DNA of 64,000 nt from a virus. The notes below the pieces were generated by a model. It made no database searches and had not been told where the DNA came from. It saw only the letters and a program-made list of their open reading frames with translations. A program made the translations under genes and the position numbers. Below are positions 18,074 through 46,564 of this stretch, one piece after another. How positions within the stretch are numbered: position 1 is the stretch's first letter; every line of letters starts with the position of its first letter. The stretch lies in IMG/VR virus record IMGVR_UViG_3300030329_005540, positions 21,676 through 85,675 of that record. The stretch is one strand, 5' to 3'.

Positions 18074-18481
18074 TGGTGGAGGCGGCGGGAATCGAACCCG
18101 CGTCTTTAGAACCATCGGCCTAAATATGCTACAAGCTTATCCGGTTTAATACGATACGTGTCTGAAACCGGCAACTTCACGTAAAGTTTGGTCTATCTTT
18201 TTTTAAACTACTGGAGACTCAACCAGACTCAACCAGTGTTTTGCTCGTTATCGACGCCCTAGCTCCTTAACGAGCATCCAGAGTAGGACGGGTAGCTACG
18301 CAGCTACAGCAGCCTCTTCAGCCCAACCAAACTGAGCGAGAATCGCATCAGCTTCGTCAAGCGAAGGAGCCATATCAACATTATTGGCAGTTGAATACCT
18401 TGATAGATGATTTAAGAGGCCGACTATCATCCTCTGCTTGCAATTCGGCGTAAGACCCCAAATCGAATCCAGTACGCCCCC
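18074..18481 (-). ncRNA. ssrA: tmRNA (408 nt), tag (A)ANNVDMAPSLDEADAILAQFGWAEEAAVAA
   Basis: 5' GGGGGCGUACUGGAUUCGA; 3' GACGCGGGUUCGAUUCCCGCCGCCUCCACCA; acceptor stem with G3:U; tag ORF 18388-18296 begins GCC after UUCAACU and ends AA-stop. Confidence 0.95.
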
Positions 18482-43482: not shown

Positions 43483-43943
43483 TTATATATGATGTTTTTA
43501 CTATCGAAATATTTTAATTTTTTTTTATTTTGTATAGATAATACATCAAAATCCCTACAATTAAGTAGTTTTTGGGGCATGGACAATATTTTGAGCCCGT
43601 TTTCTATGTCTATTTTTTTAGGGGAGGAATAATGAGAATATTTGAAAGGTAATTTTTCATTTATTTTCTTGGGGTTCCTGAAGCTATCCATTTCTTTTAA
43701 ATCTAATATAAAATTACACAAGTAAAAAGAATCTCCGAGTTTATCATCAACTCTTAAAAATGATGTAATAAAAGAAAATTCCCGATGAATAAGCTCTTCG
43801 GGAAATTTATAGATATTATTACTTTTATACCGGCAAGGATTGGTGTTTGTGGCCATAAACAGGGGCTTAACTTCGAATCCGTTAGCCAGCATGTGCTGTG
43901 GAACCAAATACTTATATGTGAAATCTATCGACTCTTCATCCAT
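43458..43943 (-). CDS. Hypothetical protein
   Basis: 161 aa ORF overlapping both neighbours. Confidence 0.55.
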   Translation of the reverse strand: MDEESIDFTYKYLVPQHMLANGFEVKPLFMATNTNPCRYKSNNIYKFPEELIHREFSFITSFLRVDDKLGDSFYLCNFILDLKEMDSFRNPKKINEKLPFKYSHYSSPKKIDIENGLKILSMPQKLLNCRDFDVLSIQNKKKLKYFDSKNIIYKWLGNKTT

Positions 43944-44554
43944 TCTAGGAAGTCTTCTACGTAATTATTTAGATTTTTACGTAACTCTTCCTCGGGGCAA
44001 TCTATCATCGGCCATTCCACTGTATAATCGGCAGCATCTTTTAATCGAGGATCATTCCTAGCCTCTTCACTATTTGCAGGAGGCGTAAAAACCTTATCTA
44101 TTTTAAAATCCCGCTGCTCTTTTTCTAATAAAACGAAGGGTTGGTCATAAAGAGAGACATGAACCAAAGAACCTTTAAGCTCATTTTTTAACCAGTAAAG
44201 TTCATCTTTTTCGAAATCACAATATCTTATGTCAGTAACTACCAAGTAATCGATTTCTGGCCCAACCATATTGAGTAAAGAGATTTTTTTATGAGCTTTT
44301 TCAATCCAGTATCGGCCTTGAGTTTGTTGACGTTTCTGTGTTCCGTGAAAAACTAAGAAAGGTCTAATTATTTCTTTTTCCTCGCGAGTACAAGAAACGG
44401 GATCAATACCGTAGTGTTCGATGCACCATGACCGGACATCATTTTTTAATTCGTCGGCCAAAGAAAGTCGTTTGCACTTAATTTTTTCTTTTAGAATAGA
44501 GAAAAACGTATCTTTTCCACATCCTGCTACTCCAGTTAGTCCGATTATCTTCAT
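43925..44554 (-). CDS. Deoxynucleoside monophosphate kinase
   Basis: IIGLTGVAGCGKDT, LADELK, R..L..HGT, VTDIRY. Confidence 0.85.
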   Translation of the reverse strand: MKIIGLTGVAGCGKDTFFSILKEKIKCKRLSLADELKNDVRSWCIEHYGIDPVSCTREEKEIIRPFLVFHGTQKRQQTQGRYWIEKAHKKISLLNMVGPEIDYLVVTDIRYCDFEKDELYWLKNELKGSLVHVSLYDQPFVLLEKEQRDFKIDKVFTPPANSEEARNDPRLKDAADYTVEWPMIDCPEEELRKNLNNYVEDFLEWMKSR

Positions 44555-44599
44555 ACTTTAGTTCTACGTATATAATTTTAATTAAATTTCAATAAATTG

Positions 44600-44993
44600 C
44601 AACTGCGTAATCTGTTTACGTGAAACTTTCCTTTAGGAAATAAGACACAAAACCCCCGTTAGGGGGCTTCGTGCTTTACGTTACAAACTTTCCTTTTAGG
44701 GCCAATTTGTTTTATGCTGGAGGCAACCAGCGGACATTACACGACTAACAAATCCGTTAGAACTACCTACCATATAGGGAGAGGAACTGTGCTTAAAACC
44801 TCTGTTACGGTAGTCAACCACAACACGCCGGGGCGATGCGATGAGAGTTACTCATCAGTTTTTTTAAAACTTTCCGTGTAAGAAAGTGCCTGTCTTTCGA
44901 GCAGAGGTGATGGCGCACCTTCCGCGATGGCTGCTCTTAGATAAACCGTTCCGCTGTTAGCTCGGTGGATAAAGGGGTCGAACCTTTTTCTAT
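44600..44993 (-). ncRNA. Unidentified long structured RNA (or RNA-primed origin region)
   Basis: No ORF of 60 aa or more; dedicated class 1 promoter; multiple hairpins, one closing with G:U pairs only on the minus strand. Confidence 0.55.
44615..44700. repeat. Imperfect direct repeats TTTACG(TG/TTAC)AAACTTTCCTTT(T)AGG flanking a 12 bp hairpin
   Basis: Copies at 44615-44637 and 44675-44700; a third AAACTTTCC core at 44867-44875. Confidence 0.75.
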
Positions 44994-44999
44994 GAGCCA

Positions 45000-45028
45000 A
45001 CAATAAGGGAGGCTTTAGATGTTGTCAA
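45000..45028 (-). promoter_or_regulatory. Class 1 promoter TTGACA-acatcTAAAGCctccct-TATTGT
   Basis: 17 bp spacer with fixed TAAAGC; no ORF for about 440 nt downstream. Confidence 0.75.
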
Positions 45029-45483
45029 TCTTTTTTTTCGTCGGGGCCAAGATTGAACCATGACTCCATATTATCTTTATCTGCCTCTGGCGTCGGTTTT
45101 ACGGATTTGTAGAGCATCACAAGATTTCCGATATCTGTATCTCGAATTGATGTTGGGTCGCACCTGTCCGTATCATCTTTGATGATGTCGCAAAAAGAAT
45201 TGATTTCTTCAGCAATGGCTTGAGCCAGCGGGGCGTGGAGGGTTATCGTTTGCTCAAACGAGGAGTAAGGTCTTTTGAGAATCCAAAATTCTTTATCGCC
45301 ATGCTCCTTTTTCACAATCATCTCATGCTTTTCTAGCTCCTCCAAGGCAGCCTCTAAACAAGCTTTATCGACATCAATATCTTCAGACAAGGGAATAATC
45401 TTCTTAAAGTCTTTTTCCGCTAAAAAAACGTCATTTTCAGCGTACCATCCATATAATTTCTCCGAAACTTCTAAAACTGTCAT
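45025..45483 (-). CDS. Hypothetical acidic protein (possible wHTH-like N-terminus)
   Basis: 152 aa ORF; AALEELEKHEMIVK...FWIL wing-like segment. Confidence 0.5.
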   Translation of the reverse strand: MTVLEVSEKLYGWYAENDVFLAEKDFKKIIPLSEDIDVDKACLEAALEELEKHEMIVKKEHGDKEFWILKRPYSSFEQTITLHAPLAQAIAEEINSFCDIIKDDTDRCDPTSIRDTDIGNLVMLYKSVKPTPEADKDNMESWFNLGPDEKKD

Positions 45484-45528
45484 ATCAGTTATAATATGAT
45501 ATTTTTTAAGATAACTCTATTTTTTTTA

Positions 45529-45556
45529 TTGCAATGGCGGCAATTAAACGTATAAT
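45529..45556 (+). promoter_or_regulatory. Sigma70-type promoter TTGCAA-N16-TATAAT at the strand switch
   Basis: Perfect -10 located 8 nt before the ATG at 45565. Confidence 0.6.
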
Positions 45557-45564
45557 AATTAAGT

Positions 45565-45807
45565 ATGAATGAAGAAAAAGAGAAGCTGGGGAGAGGTAGA
45601 CCGGGATATGACTTATCTTGGCCCGAAGAAACATTTACGGCACAGCAAATTTACACAGCTTTAGAGGGTAAGCTCTCAAGAGTTTCAGTACACGCCAAGA
45701 TTAACAAGGCTCTAGAAAGAGGAGAGCTTCAGCTAGTCGGTAAAGTTAAGCCGAAAACAGGAAGACCTTGTATCGTCTACAAAAAGACGCCTGAAACAAA
45801 TGGCTAG
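45565..45807 (+). CDS. Winged-helix DNA-binding protein
   Basis: FTAQQIY...LSRVSVHAKINK..ERGEL...GRPCIVY. Confidence 0.7.
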   Translation: MNEEKEKLGRGRPGYDLSWPEETFTAQQIYTALEGKLSRVSVHAKINKALERGELQLVGKVKPKTGRPCIVYKKTPETNG

Positions 45808-46210
45808 AATTTCTTGGAAGGAATATGCATTGCGTTTAGCGGAGACCGCTGCGCTCAGAAGTGAAGACCCCTATCGCAAAGTCGGGGCTTGCGCTTTAGA
45901 CTCTAATCGTAGAGTTTTAGCTCTAGGATATAATGGTTTAGCTTCTGGAAAAAATGCTCCAGCTTTTTCATTTTGGAATGACAGGGATGCAAGACGGCCA
46001 TTCATGATTCACGCAGAGGTGAATTGCTTGTCAATGGTAAACGTTGGTGAATGCAGACTTTTAGCGGTTAACCTTTTACCCTGCTCATCTTGCGCTCAGA
46101 TGATCGCCGCTTACAAAATACCCGAGATAGTTTATAGAGAAGAGTACGAAAGAGATACAACGGCTCATGAAATTTTTAAATTCTACGACATTATACTAAC
46201 CAAAAAATAA
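45800..46210 (+). CDS. dCMP deaminase
   Basis: RSEDP..KVGA, GYNG, IHAE.N, PCSSC. Confidence 0.92.
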   Translation: MARISWKEYALRLAETAALRSEDPYRKVGACALDSNRRVLALGYNGLASGKNAPAFSFWNDRDARRPFMIHAEVNCLSMVNVGECRLLAVNLLPCSSCAQMIAAYKIPEIVYREEYERDTTAHEIFKFYDIILTKK

Positions 46211-46213
46211 CCG

Positions 46214-46564
46214 ATGATTGATTTACTTTACGTTTTTGTTCCCGCCGCAATTTTATTAGTTTGGTTTGAATCAAACGCCTTTGTAGAGTATTGCAAATTA
46301 TTGCAAGTAGGATTAAAATTTTTTGGGATTGACGAGTACAAAAGCTGGCAAGATAAAGGCTTGTCTTATCCAGAATTTTTAGTTGTAAAAGATAATACAT
46401 TTTTTAACAGGTTGATTTCTTGTCCTATTTGTTTAAATTTTTGGTTGAATGTAGCTTTTATCCCCGTTTATAAAAATTTATATATATTTTGCGCGGGTTA
46501 CTGTCTATCATTATTGGTGTACTTTTTAGTGAAATTAGTAATGATTAAAGGGAGCGAGGAATGA
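46214..46564 (+). CDS. DUF1360-like membrane protein
   Basis: TM helices with LISCPICLNFW. Confidence 0.55.
   Translation: MIDLLYVFVPAAILLVWFESNAFVEYCKLLQVGLKFFGIDEYKSWQDKGLSYPEFLVVKDNTFFNRLISCPICLNFWLNVAFIPVYKNLYIFCAGYCLSLLVYFLVKLVMIKGSEE

What the first reader, a model, noticed from the sequence alone, without database searches (positions are those of the whole stretch)
44560..45028. Promoter-driven ~440 nt ORF-free structured region at the transcription strand switch
Seen: a full class 1 promoter (45028-45000) fires leftward into the largest non-coding gap apart from the tmRNA locus. The minus-strand transcript contains a T-arm mimic (AAAGG-UUCGACC-CCUUU), a GAGCAG/CUGCUC stem enclosing AGGUG/CACCU, CUUUC/GAAAG, GAUGAG/CUCAUC, GCUGG/CCAGC, and a 12 bp hairpin CACGAAGCCCCC-UAAC-GGGGGUUUUGUG that closes with G:U pairs only on this strand. 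By eye it lacks RNase P, SRP and group I/II hallmark motifs. Inference: a novel large phage ncRNA, or a very long regulatory leader for the dNMP kinase-sigma operon.
Basis: partly seen in the sequence, partly recalled or inferred. Interest (0 to 1): 0.8.

Follow-up and report, generated by a model that had tools for sequence, protein, structure and literature searches.

The report
Knotted RNA gene of marine phages
The gene-free stretch is a real gene, with its own promoter and terminator, for a folded and knotted RNA of about 350 bases that makes no protein, matches no catalogued RNA family, recurs in about fifty uncultured marine phage contigs, and has no known function.

Summary
Window 44640-44993 (minus strand) is a discrete non-coding RNA gene of about 350 nt. 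A sigma-70-type promoter (45028-45000) precedes it, and its TTGAC box is kept in 36 of 39 relatives. A G+C-rich hairpin with a U-rich tail ends it (44673-44638).

nhmmer and a covariance model find homologues in about 50 viral contigs, at 60-70% nucleotide identity where neighbouring proteins are only 35-50% identical. On 39 sequences the core helices, including a pseudoknot, are 92.7% paired against 72.5% in shuffles, with 211 doubly changed cells against 64.5. There is no conserved ORF. Rfam 15 and ARAGORN give nothing, and the "T-arm" loop is not conserved.

The RNA moves between contexts: after a winged-helix ORF, after dUTPase, or inverted. This favours an independent gene over a kinase leader.

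Two new points:
- A 23-26-nt purine-rich box inside the RNA is repeated just after the terminator, 12 nt before the next promoter, and the two copies change together between phages.
- Relatives lacking this RNA carry a different ~425-nt element with its own twin boxes in the same slot.

Function is unknown. My best guess is a trans-acting scaffold or decoy read by a phage-specific factor.

This scan has met the same family before on other DNA (e1-6047264, e1-6050389, e1-5900081).

The parts
45000..45028 (-). Promoter P1: TTGACA, 17-nt spacer, TATTGT. The transcription start is inferred at about 44993.
   Evidence: Consensus scan, 10 of 12 matches. TTGAC sits at a fixed distance (median 57 nt before helix Ha) in 36 of 39 relatives, whatever the upstream ORF frame. 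Full -35/-10 geometry is found in 20 of 39. The start site is not shown by any data.
44640..44993 (-). The RNA gene itself, about 350 nt (312-408 nt in relatives)
   Evidence: nhmmer homology starts at the predicted start site and ends just past the terminator. Fold z = -4.09. No conserved ORF and no 3-base periodicity.
44971..44987 (-).
   Evidence: The stem is kept through compensatory changes, for example AACGG/CCGUU, GAGGG/CCCUC and AAGUG/CACUU. The loop is not conserved.
44946..44968 (-). Helix Ha (CCACCG ... CGG..GG)
   Evidence: RNAalifold pairs at columns 43-49/60-68, with UA to CG double changes in 7 sequences.
44870..44936 (-). Variable 5' domain: the nested stems GAGCAG/CUGCUC and AGGUG/CACCU, then the hairpin CUUUC/GAAAG
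   Evidence: Present in the window. Relatives carry stems of differing size here, in two architectural types. This part was not tested for covariation.
44858..44861 (-). Pseudoknot X, 5' strand (AAAC of the A-run)
   Evidence: Pairs with 44784-44787. 95.5% of cells are paired; AU to GC double changes occur in 14 and 6 sequences at two pairs.
44840..44856 (-). Hairpin Hb, GAUGAG-UAACU-CUCAUC
   Evidence: All 6 pairs show double changes (up to 20 of 39 sequences); 96.2% paired.
44818..44833 (-). Highly conserved segment CCCCGGCGUGUUGUGG, containing invariant CC and G positions
   Evidence: Invariant columns. Some relatives insert a GNRA-capped hairpin here. Its pairing partner was not resolved.
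44761..44815 (-). Long-range helix Hc (GACUACC 44815-44809 with GGUAGUU 44767-44761), enclosing Hd (44803-44780), the 3' strand of pseudoknot X (GUUC 44787-44784) and He (44778-44770)
   Evidence: Hc: 6 of 7 pairs show double changes (up to 24 of 39 sequences); 97.1% paired. Hd: 95.6% paired. U.G/C-G alternation at Hc pair 81-143 fits this strand only.
44745..44760 (-). Hairpin Hf, CUAAC-GGAUUU-GUUAG
   Evidence: The first element in the minimum-energy fold of this segment in most of the 39 relatives. Not counted formally.
44716..44731 (-). Hairpin Hg, GCUGG-UUGCCU-CCAGC. Its loop (GCC, 44724-44722) pairs with GGC at 44703-44701 to form pseudoknot PK2.
   Evidence: Hg: 12 double changes at each of two pairs. 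PK2: a 3-bp core paired in 31-35 of 39 sequences, with few double changes in the count. By eye it is kept in variants: CUC/GAG, GACUU/AAGUC, GCUU/AAGC.
44675..44700 (-). Box copy 1, CCUAAAAGGAAAGUUUGUAACGUAAA, inside the RNA between PK2 and the terminator
   Evidence: Direct repeat with copy 2: z = 7.1 in the window and present in nearly all relatives. Within-genome similarity scores 27.4 against 16.4 +/- 4.3 between genomes; the cognate copy is the best match in 21 of 39.
44638..44673 (-). Intrinsic terminator: stem CACGAAGCCCCC / GGGGGUUUUGUG with loop UAAC, then tail UCUUAUUU
   Evidence: Terminator scan. The G-run is invariant in relatives. A median of 8 T in the 12 nt after the G-run. GCACGA (44674-44669) can alternatively pair with UCGUGU (44744-44739), a predicted closing helix Hh.
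44615..44637 (-). Box copy 2, CCUAAAGGAAAGUUUCACGUAAA, just after the terminator
   Evidence: It shows no genome-specific pairing with the rest of the RNA.
44575..44602 (-). Promoter-like site P2 (TTGCAA, 16-nt spacer, TAAAAT) for the downstream gene. It starts 12 nt after box copy 2.
   Evidence: A comparable site lies 34-67 nt after the terminator in most of the 18 (of 39) relatives that have a site.
45025..45483 (-). Upstream gene of 152 aa with no family match and a predicted winged-helix fold. It is the usual left neighbour of the RNA.
   Evidence: No Pfam or PHROG match. AlphaFold2 pLDDT 89.3. Only weak Foldseek matches (E >= 0.014) to MarR/MecI/PadR-type and kleisin winged helices. A homologue lies within 3 kb of the kinase in 34 of the 36 loci that hold the RNA, in most of them directly upstream of it.
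43925..44554 (-). Downstream gene: dNMP-kinase-like P-loop protein
   Evidence: Sub-threshold Pfam hits to P-mevalo_kinase and DNMK. 147 relatives. tblastn hits lie under genes annotated dNMP kinase in Thermus phages.

Best explanation
This is a self-contained gene for a non-coding RNA of about 350 nt. The RNA has a conserved, multi-helix fold with at least one and probably two pseudoknots. It belongs to an uncatalogued family of uncultured marine phages with genomes of roughly 150-180 kb.

Shown here: a conserved promoter, a conserved terminator, helices that covary, no coding potential, and a position in the genome that changes between relatives.

Inferred: the host RNA polymerase makes the RNA early, from the sigma-70-type promoter P1, and stops at the hairpin plus U-tail. 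The RNA then acts in trans as a folded scaffold.

My most likely mechanism (inference, weak): the 3' domain displays an unpaired purine-rich box. The same box, with phage-specific sequence, is repeated right after the terminator, next to the promoter of the following gene. One phage-specific factor, possibly the winged-helix protein encoded next door, would read both copies. The abundant RNA would then titrate or deliver that factor and so feed back on the downstream nucleotide-metabolism genes.
For: - **Homologues:** found in 36 of 80 kinase-anchored viral loci, in 12 further contigs, and in one complete 178-kb genome.
- **Conservation:** 60-70% nucleotide identity, where the flanking proteins are 35-50% identical.
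- **Covariation of the core:** 92.7% paired against 72.5% in shuffles, 211 doubly changed cells against 64.5, 0 of 500 shuffles as high, and slid controls at 38-52%. Pseudoknot X covaries AU to GC. Hairpin Hg covaries and the PK2 core is kept.
- **Strand:** fold z = -4.09 against -1.66 for the other strand.
- **Not coding:** no conserved ORF and no codon periodicity.
- **Own transcription signals:** P1 TTGAC in 36 of 39 at a fixed distance, and a U-rich tail after an invariant G-run.
- **Independence from the kinase:**
  - the RNA follows a dUTPase gene in 4 loci;
  - it is inverted or relocated in 7 loci;
  - it lies 4.5 kb from the kinase in the complete genome;
  - a second promoter follows the terminator in 18 of 39.
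- **Twin boxes:** within-genome similarity 27.4 against 16.4 +/- 4.3 between genomes. They have no co-varying RNA partner, which points to a trans factor. Copy 2 lies 12 nt before the P2 -35 box.
- **A second twin-box element:** an unrelated ~425-nt element in the same slot has the same twin-box layout.
- **Neighbour:** a winged-helix fold with pLDDT 89.
Against: - No transcript data of any kind exist. The start site, the 3' end, the abundance and the timing are all inferred.
- The function is unknown, and the scaffold/decoy step rests only on the twin boxes.
- Box copy 2 lies upstream of P2, so it is not in the P2 transcript. A DNA-level role (operator, UP-like element, iteron) is equally possible.
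- The neighbouring protein gave only weak fold matches, and its homologues also occur next to the other element, so a specific partnership is not shown.
- Downstream genes always run in the same direction as the RNA, and most are nucleotide-metabolism genes. This also fits a cis-acting leader.
- At least one 90%-complete relative lacks both the core model hit and, by implication, any need for the RNA.
Confidence: 0.55

Rival explanations
1. A cis-acting regulatory leader (a riboswitch-like or protein-dependent attenuator). The large fold would sense a ligand or factor and set read-through of the terminator into the downstream nucleotide-metabolism genes (dNMP kinase, sigma factor, glycosyltransferases, ribonucleotide reductase).
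For: - The order promoter, structured RNA, terminator, co-directional genes holds in every locus seen.
- The neighbours are nucleotide-metabolism genes: dUTPase upstream, dCMP deaminase, dNMP kinase and ribonucleotide reductase nearby.
- The segment GCACGA at the base of the terminator can pair either with an upstream strand (helix Hh) or with the U-tail. Both pairings score better for cognate than for non-cognate sequences (-10.7 against -8.3, and -8.4 against -5.9), as in an expression platform.
- The terminator sequence is unusually invariant.
Against: - The gene immediately downstream differs between loci: the kinase, a 116-aa membrane-like ORF, or unrelated inserts of 0.7-1.7 kb.
- A separate promoter follows the terminator in about half of the relatives.
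- Both alternative pairings leave a G+C-rich hairpin followed by U-rich sequence, so no clear on/off switch is visible (sequence).
- No riboswitch family matches.
Confidence: 0.22
2. Part of a transcription-activated or RNA-primed replication origin. The two direct repeats would be iterons for the adjacent winged-helix protein, the A+T-rich tract at 44560-44620 would be the unwinding element, and the P1 transcript would be the activator or primer.
For: - Genome-specific direct repeats that change together next to a winged-helix protein gene.
- The boxes are purine-rich, and purine-rich RNA is known to form stable hybrids with DNA (established knowledge, for example ColE1 RNA II and polypurine tracts).
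- The cumulative GC skew of the window has its minimum at 44-46 kb.
- The phage encodes DnaB-like and DnaE-like proteins but no recognised initiator.
Against: - There are only two repeats.
- The GC-skew minimum coincides with the switch in gene direction, so it is not independent evidence.
- In the dUTPase-context loci the RNA lies inside one-directional gene blocks with no strand switch.
- The elaborate covarying fold with pseudoknots far exceeds what a primer needs.
- The A+T-rich tract is also simply promoter P2 and the ribosome-binding region.
Confidence: 0.08
3. A member or remnant of a known RNA class: a tRNA-like or tmRNA piece (the 'T-arm'), RNase P RNA, a group I intron, 6S RNA, SRP RNA, GOLLD, ROOL or HEARO.
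For: - GGUUCGACC resembles a T-loop.
- The order X5'-Hb-Hc5'-X3'-He-Hc3' loosely recalls the P3-P7 pseudoknot of group I introns. This comparison is from my own knowledge and was not tested.
Against: - No Rfam 15 match at E<=10 on the window, nor at E<=1 on ten homologous loci.
- ARAGORN finds the real tmRNA and three tRNAs elsewhere in the window, and nothing here.
- The T-like loop is not conserved.
- The flanks are not halves of a split gene.
Confidence: 0.03

Closest known systems
GOLLD and ROOL RNAs (large ornate RNAs often carried by phages and prophages; Rfam; cryo-EM in bioRxiv 10.1101/2024.12.08.627333 / PMC12286853)
   Same: A large, intricately folded, phage-borne non-coding RNA with pseudoknots. 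It was found by comparative genomics and has no known function.
   Different: There is no sequence or covariance-model similarity. This RNA is smaller, at about 350 nt. It is not next to tRNAs; it sits in an early nucleotide-metabolism region. It carries a box that is repeated after its terminator.
Transcription-terminating riboswitch and T-box leaders
   Same: A promoter, then a large structured RNA, then an intrinsic terminator, then co-directional genes. A closing helix shares nucleotides with the terminator base.
   Different: The downstream gene is not constant. A second promoter often follows. No switch logic is evident, and no family matches.
Lambdoid nut sites and other phage-specific paired recognition sites
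   Same: Two copies of one short element are alike within a phage but differ between related phages. This is the pattern expected when a co-evolving phage factor reads both (the comparison is from established knowledge of nutL/nutR with N proteins).
   Different: No boxA/boxB hairpin is present. Copy 2 lies after the terminator and before the next promoter. No N-like or Q-like protein was identified.
ColE1 RNA II and phage T4 oriF/oriG R-loop origins
   Same: A promoter-driven structured transcript lies next to an A+T-rich tract, with purine-rich stretches that could form hybrids with DNA.
   Different: There is no evidence of hybrid formation or of replication starting here. The fold is much more elaborate, and the RNA moves between genomic contexts.
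Family B: the ~425-nt twin-box element found here in the same slot of sister phages. It is probably the 'twin-box' RNA of earlier notes e1-5367344 and e1-5834986, but I could not check this.
   Same: The same slot between the winged-helix ORF and the kinase. The same layout: promoter, conserved ORF-free element with an internal purine-rich box, hairpin, second copy of the box, second promoter. The two elements are mutually exclusive (36 against 33 of 80 loci).
   Different: There is no detectable sequence similarity to this RNA. The long-range helices differ. The boxes lie 185-214 nt apart instead of 62 nt.

Membership tests
tRNA / tRNA-like element (T-arm) | Conserved T-loop (GTTCRANNC) with a cloverleaf or acceptor context | tested here: not met
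   ARAGORN finds nothing here. The loop of the 5' hairpin varies freely among 30 relatives.
tmRNA (standard or permuted) | tRNA-like domain plus a tag reading frame; match to Rfam RF00023 or to ARAGORN | tested here: not met
   The real tmRNA lies at 18074-18481. There is no hit at this locus.
RNase P RNA, SRP RNA, 6S RNA, group I/II introns, GOLLD, ROOL, HEARO, known riboswitches (all Rfam 15 families) | Covariance-model match | tested here: not met
   No match at E<=10 on window 44300-45300. None at E<=1 on ten homologous loci.
Independent bacterial-type RNA gene | Own promoter, conserved in relatives | tested here: met
   TTGACA-17-TATTGT. TTGAC in 36 of 39 relatives at a fixed distance.
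Independent bacterial-type RNA gene | Own intrinsic terminator, conserved in relatives | tested here: met
   Terminator scan, invariant G-run, U-rich tail with a median of 8 T in 12 nt.
Independent bacterial-type RNA gene | A discrete transcript is observed | not testable with these tools
   No RNA run holds the stretch.
Structured functional RNA | Base pairs kept through compensatory changes, above controls | tested here: met
   20 of 24 pairs show double changes, covariation score 0.622 against 0.233 in shuffles, 0 of 500 shuffles as high, slid controls 0.11-0.17.
Cis-regulatory leader / riboswitch | Constant association with one downstream gene or pathway | tested here: inconclusive
   The kinase follows directly in about a third of loci and other genes follow elsewhere. 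The neighbourhood is nonetheless nucleotide metabolism throughout.
Cis-regulatory leader / riboswitch | Mutually exclusive terminator and antiterminator folds | tested here: inconclusive
   There is alternative pairing at the terminator base, but the G+C-rich upper stem and the U-rich tail persist in both forms.
Iteron-type replication origin | Several direct repeats bound by an initiator, next to an unwinding element | tested here: inconclusive
   Two concerted repeats, an A+T-rich tract, and a GC-skew minimum. But there are only two repeats, and protein binding cannot be tested here.
CRISPR mini-array | Identical repeats flanking a variable spacer | tested here: not met
   The repeats differ by small insertions or deletions. 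The 'spacer' is the conserved terminator hairpin.

The most novel reading that the evidence does not exclude
The RNA and the unrelated family B element would be interchangeable modules of a so-far undescribed control device. In it, a large folded phage RNA carries a copy of the sequence that lies just in front of the next promoter. The RNA would then mimic, guide to, or hybridise with that DNA site. Two possible outcomes are RNA-directed promoter control and RNA priming of replication, with specificity that evolves phage by phage.
Probability: 0.18. Interest if true: 0.9.

Novelty: new variant of a known kind. Interest (0 to 1): 0.72.

Why it matters
Large, elaborately folded RNAs with conserved pseudoknots are rare, and those understood so far perform central tasks (ribosome, RNase P, tmRNA, riboswitches, ribozymes). 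This is an uncatalogued family carried by an abundant group of uncultured marine phages, placed among their early nucleotide-metabolism and replication genes.

Sister phages put a different RNA-like element, with the same twin-box layout, in the same slot. That argues for a selected function tied to the boxes, not a structural accident, and gives a concrete handle for experiments: the boxes, the neighbouring winged-helix protein and the downstream promoter.

The RNA is also compact and well defined enough to be a candidate for RNA structure determination.

Tried and rejected
Relatives were fetched through the search for related loci and pattern scans instead.
- **Cultured relatives:** blastn of the locus against the phage collection gave no match. 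tblastn of the kinase hit only Thermus phages over a third of its length. No cultured relative or host could be named.
- **First viral scans:** a single-protein scan and an exact 21-mer of the 5' hairpin found nothing.
- **Expression:** no RNA holder is listed. The one run laid (X1, contigs, RNA only guessed) covered part of the kinase gene only. This gives no evidence either way.
- **Bacterial genomes:** All hits but one (a phage contig binned into a Pseudomonadales MAG, L231) failed the profile check. The core model was not found in 150 other genomes sampled from that MAG's order. This sample does not exclude a cellular homologue.
- **A third copy of the box:** a third GGAAAGUUU in the window (44876-44868) is not genome-specific in relatives. 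The box motif is not a repeated promoter element elsewhere in the window.
- **An RNA partner for the boxes:** none is consistent across genomes.
- **Pairing of copy 2** with the Hh strand or the U-tail shows no cognate advantage.
- **A hairpin or pseudoknot for CCCCGGCGUGUUGUGG:** several registers were tried by eye and none holds across subfamilies.
- **Winged-helix protein:** the Foldseek search of the PDB gave no hit at E<=0.001.
- **Fremin et al. 2023 (PMC10690425):** their candidates are 29-151 nt long and the supplementary files are not held, so any overlap with fragments of this RNA could not be checked.
- **Literature:** the searches found no description of this family.
- **Family B** has no Rfam match above chance.

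Full report
**What is in the window.** The window is part of an 85.7-kb IMG/VR virus contig judged about 54% complete. It encodes a DnaE-type polymerase, a DnaB-like helicase, class I ribonucleotide reductase, glycosyltransferases, a tmRNA and three tRNAs.

On the minus strand, a 152-aa ORF (45025-45483) is followed by 470 bases without a sizeable ORF. Then comes a dNMP-kinase-like gene (43925-44554), a 161-aa ORF and a sigma-70-region-2 protein.

The minus strand folds much better than its shuffles (z = -4.09), and the plus strand does not (z = -1.66). G+C rises to 45-50% against about 35% around it.

**It is conserved as nucleic acid.** An alignment of kinase relatives retrieved 80 viral loci. 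nhmmer with the gap as query, iterated, found a homologous element of 316-410 nt in 36 of them.

Homology starts at query position 40-44, a few bases after the inferred start site at position 38. It ends shortly after the hairpin. A degenerate 18-mer from the core found 27 more matching stretches, 12 of them on new contigs. The covariance model found the RNA in a complete 178-kb genome, 4.5 kb from its kinase.

With the window and one phage contig binned into a Pseudomonadales MAG, the family stands at about 50 contigs. Nucleotide identity is 60-70%, while the flanking proteins are only 35-50% identical.

No reading frame spans more than about half of the element in any member. Conservation shows no 3-base periodicity.

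**It is a structured RNA.** RNAalifold on 30 sequences gave six helices, 18 of whose 30 pairs have compensatory changes. A search for stacked covarying column pairs added a pseudoknot: the A-run before hairpin Hb pairs with GUUU inside the loop of helix Hd.

On a separate 39-sequence alignment of the core (window 44756-44867), the five helices gave these figures:

| Measure | Observed | Control |
|---|---|---|
| Cells paired | 92.7% | 72.5% in shuffles; 38-52% with the partner slid |
| Doubly changed cells | 211 | 64.5 in shuffles |
| Shuffles reaching the observed value | 0 of 500 | |

Pseudoknot X shows AU to GC exchanges in 14 and 6 sequences. The long-range helix Hc shows up to 24 double changes per pair. 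U.G/C-G alternation fits the minus strand only.

In the 3' domain, hairpin Hg covaries. Its loop keeps a 3-bp pairing (CCC/GGG in most members) with a site about 20 nt downstream. Variant lineages keep complementarity: CUC/GAG, GACUU/AAGUC, GCUU/AAGC, and GCC/GGC in the window. I call this second pseudoknot likely, not proven.

A helix closing the 3' domain (UCGUGU with GCACGA in the window) appears in most single-sequence folds. It has a modest cognate advantage.

**It has its own signals and moves about.** TTGAC lies at a fixed distance upstream in 36 of 39 members, whether it falls inside or after the upstream ORF. The full -35/-10 geometry is recognisable in 20 of 39. The terminator G-run is invariant and is followed by U-rich sequence.

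The RNA usually follows the homologue of the 152-aa ORF, but not always:
- in seven loci it is inverted or displaced;
- in four loci it follows a dUTPase gene inside a one-directional block;
- it may be followed by the kinase, by a 116-aa membrane-like ORF, or by 0.7-1.7 kb of other genes.

A second promoter-like site follows the terminator in 18 of 39 members. One 90%-complete relative gives no match to the core model. Together these favour an autonomous, accessory RNA gene over a dedicated kinase leader. The leader reading is not excluded.

**It is not a known family.** Rfam 15 gives nothing at E<=10 on the locus, and nothing at E<=1 on ten homologous loci. ARAGORN finds nothing here. The 'T-arm' is a covarying hairpin whose loop is not conserved.

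The literature held here has no description of it. The large phage screen of Fremin et al. reports only candidates of 29-151 nt, and its tables are not held.

This scan has met the family before. Note e1-6047264 shares words with this stretch. It and notes e1-6050389 and e1-5900081 describe a ~330-365-nt pseudoknotted RNA after a phage dUTPase gene. I confirmed independently that four members of my set sit after a dUTPase.

**Twin boxes.** A 23-26-nt purine-rich stretch between the second pseudoknot and the terminator (44700-44675) is repeated directly after the terminator (44637-44615). In most relatives, as in the window, copy 1 carries one extra base after the first three.

The repeat exists in nearly every member, and its sequence differs from phage to phage. 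Within-genome similarity scores 27.4, against 16.4 +/- 4.3 between genomes. That is even higher than copy 1 compared between genomes (18.8).

Neither copy has a genome-specific complementary partner in the RNA. The motif is not a general promoter element of the window. Copy 2 ends 12 nt before the -35 box of P2.

Concerted change without an RNA partner is what one expects of two sites read by one co-evolving factor. Phage operators, iterons and nut sites behave this way (established knowledge). It would also fit if sequence identity between the RNA and the DNA site itself matters.

The adjacent 152-aa protein is confidently predicted as a winged helix (pLDDT 89.3). It has only weak matches to MarR/MecI/PadR-type regulators. 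It is a candidate reader, but nothing here shows binding.

**A second element in the same slot.** Of the 44 kinase loci without this RNA, 32 still have the 152-aa homologue. Most of these have a gap of 350-500 nt without a long ORF before the kinase.

These gaps form one similarity cluster unrelated to this RNA. A profile built from it finds a ~425-nt element in 33 of the 80 loci, never together with this RNA. It has different long-range helices and no Rfam match above chance.

It too carries an internal purine-rich box that is repeated near its 3' end, just before a second TTGAC promoter. Both copies change together between phages: AAAGGATAAGCAGT, AAAAGACTAGTGGTC, AAAAGGCTGGCAGACA. Two unrelated elements with the same layout in the same slot argue that the layout, and the boxes in particular, are the functional point.

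**Mechanism and odds.** Shown: a conserved, independently signalled, pseudoknotted non-coding RNA gene. Everything else is inferred. My odds are:

| Reading | Probability |
|---|---|
| Early, trans-acting scaffold whose displayed box and the post-terminator copy are read by one phage-specific factor (decoy or delivery feeding back on the downstream promoter) | 0.55 |
| Cis-acting attenuator for nucleotide-metabolism genes | 0.22 |
| Component of an RNA-activated replication origin | 0.08 |
| Disguised known RNA class | 0.03 |
| Something else | the remainder |

For the origin reading, the GC-skew minimum at 44-46 kb coincides with the switch in gene direction and so adds little.

Noticed in passing
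L004:2545-2972 and 32 other loci (for example L002, L012, L020, L027, L056, L054): A different conserved element of about 425 nt, free of long ORFs ('family B'), fills the same slot between the winged-helix ORF and the kinase in 33 of 80 related loci. It never occurs together with the RNA studied here. It has its own twin boxes and flanking TTGAC promoters, and no Rfam match above chance.
   Followed up: partly
window 44899-44936, and the same place in L050, L057, L072, L049, L077: One subfamily, which includes the window, has a 5' domain with the conserved motif CCAUCGCGG. Most of these sequences also carry a second CCAUC in the enclosed hairpin loop. Other members have a different, larger two-hairpin domain there.
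   Followed up: no
window 45000-45028: The spacer of promoter P1 contains TAAAGC. Relatives often have GGAG-like words at the same spacer position.
   Followed up: no
window 44000-46000: The cumulative GC skew of the 64-kb window reaches its minimum here, at the point where gene direction switches.
   Followed up: partly
window 18074-18481: A phage tmRNA with an unusually long predicted tag of 30 residues (ARAGORN).
   Followed up: no
window 46214-46564 (+), and homologues directly downstream of the RNA in L044 and L067 (ORFs of like size, 115-119 aa, stand there in L108, L118, L133, L100): A 116-aa hydrophobic ORF with a CPICLNFW motif is the gene that follows the RNA in L044 and L067. In the four dUTPase-context loci an ORF of like size (115-119 aa) stands there, but its homology was not checked. 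No Pfam or PHROG match.
   Followed up: no
L231 / L260 (CAZYHH010000001.1, 44-kb contig): A contig carrying this RNA, nearly identical to two IMG/VR phage contigs, is binned into a 'Pseudomonadales' MAG. This may hint at the host or may be a binning artefact. 150 other genomes sampled from the same order gave no match to the RNA core.
   Followed up: partly
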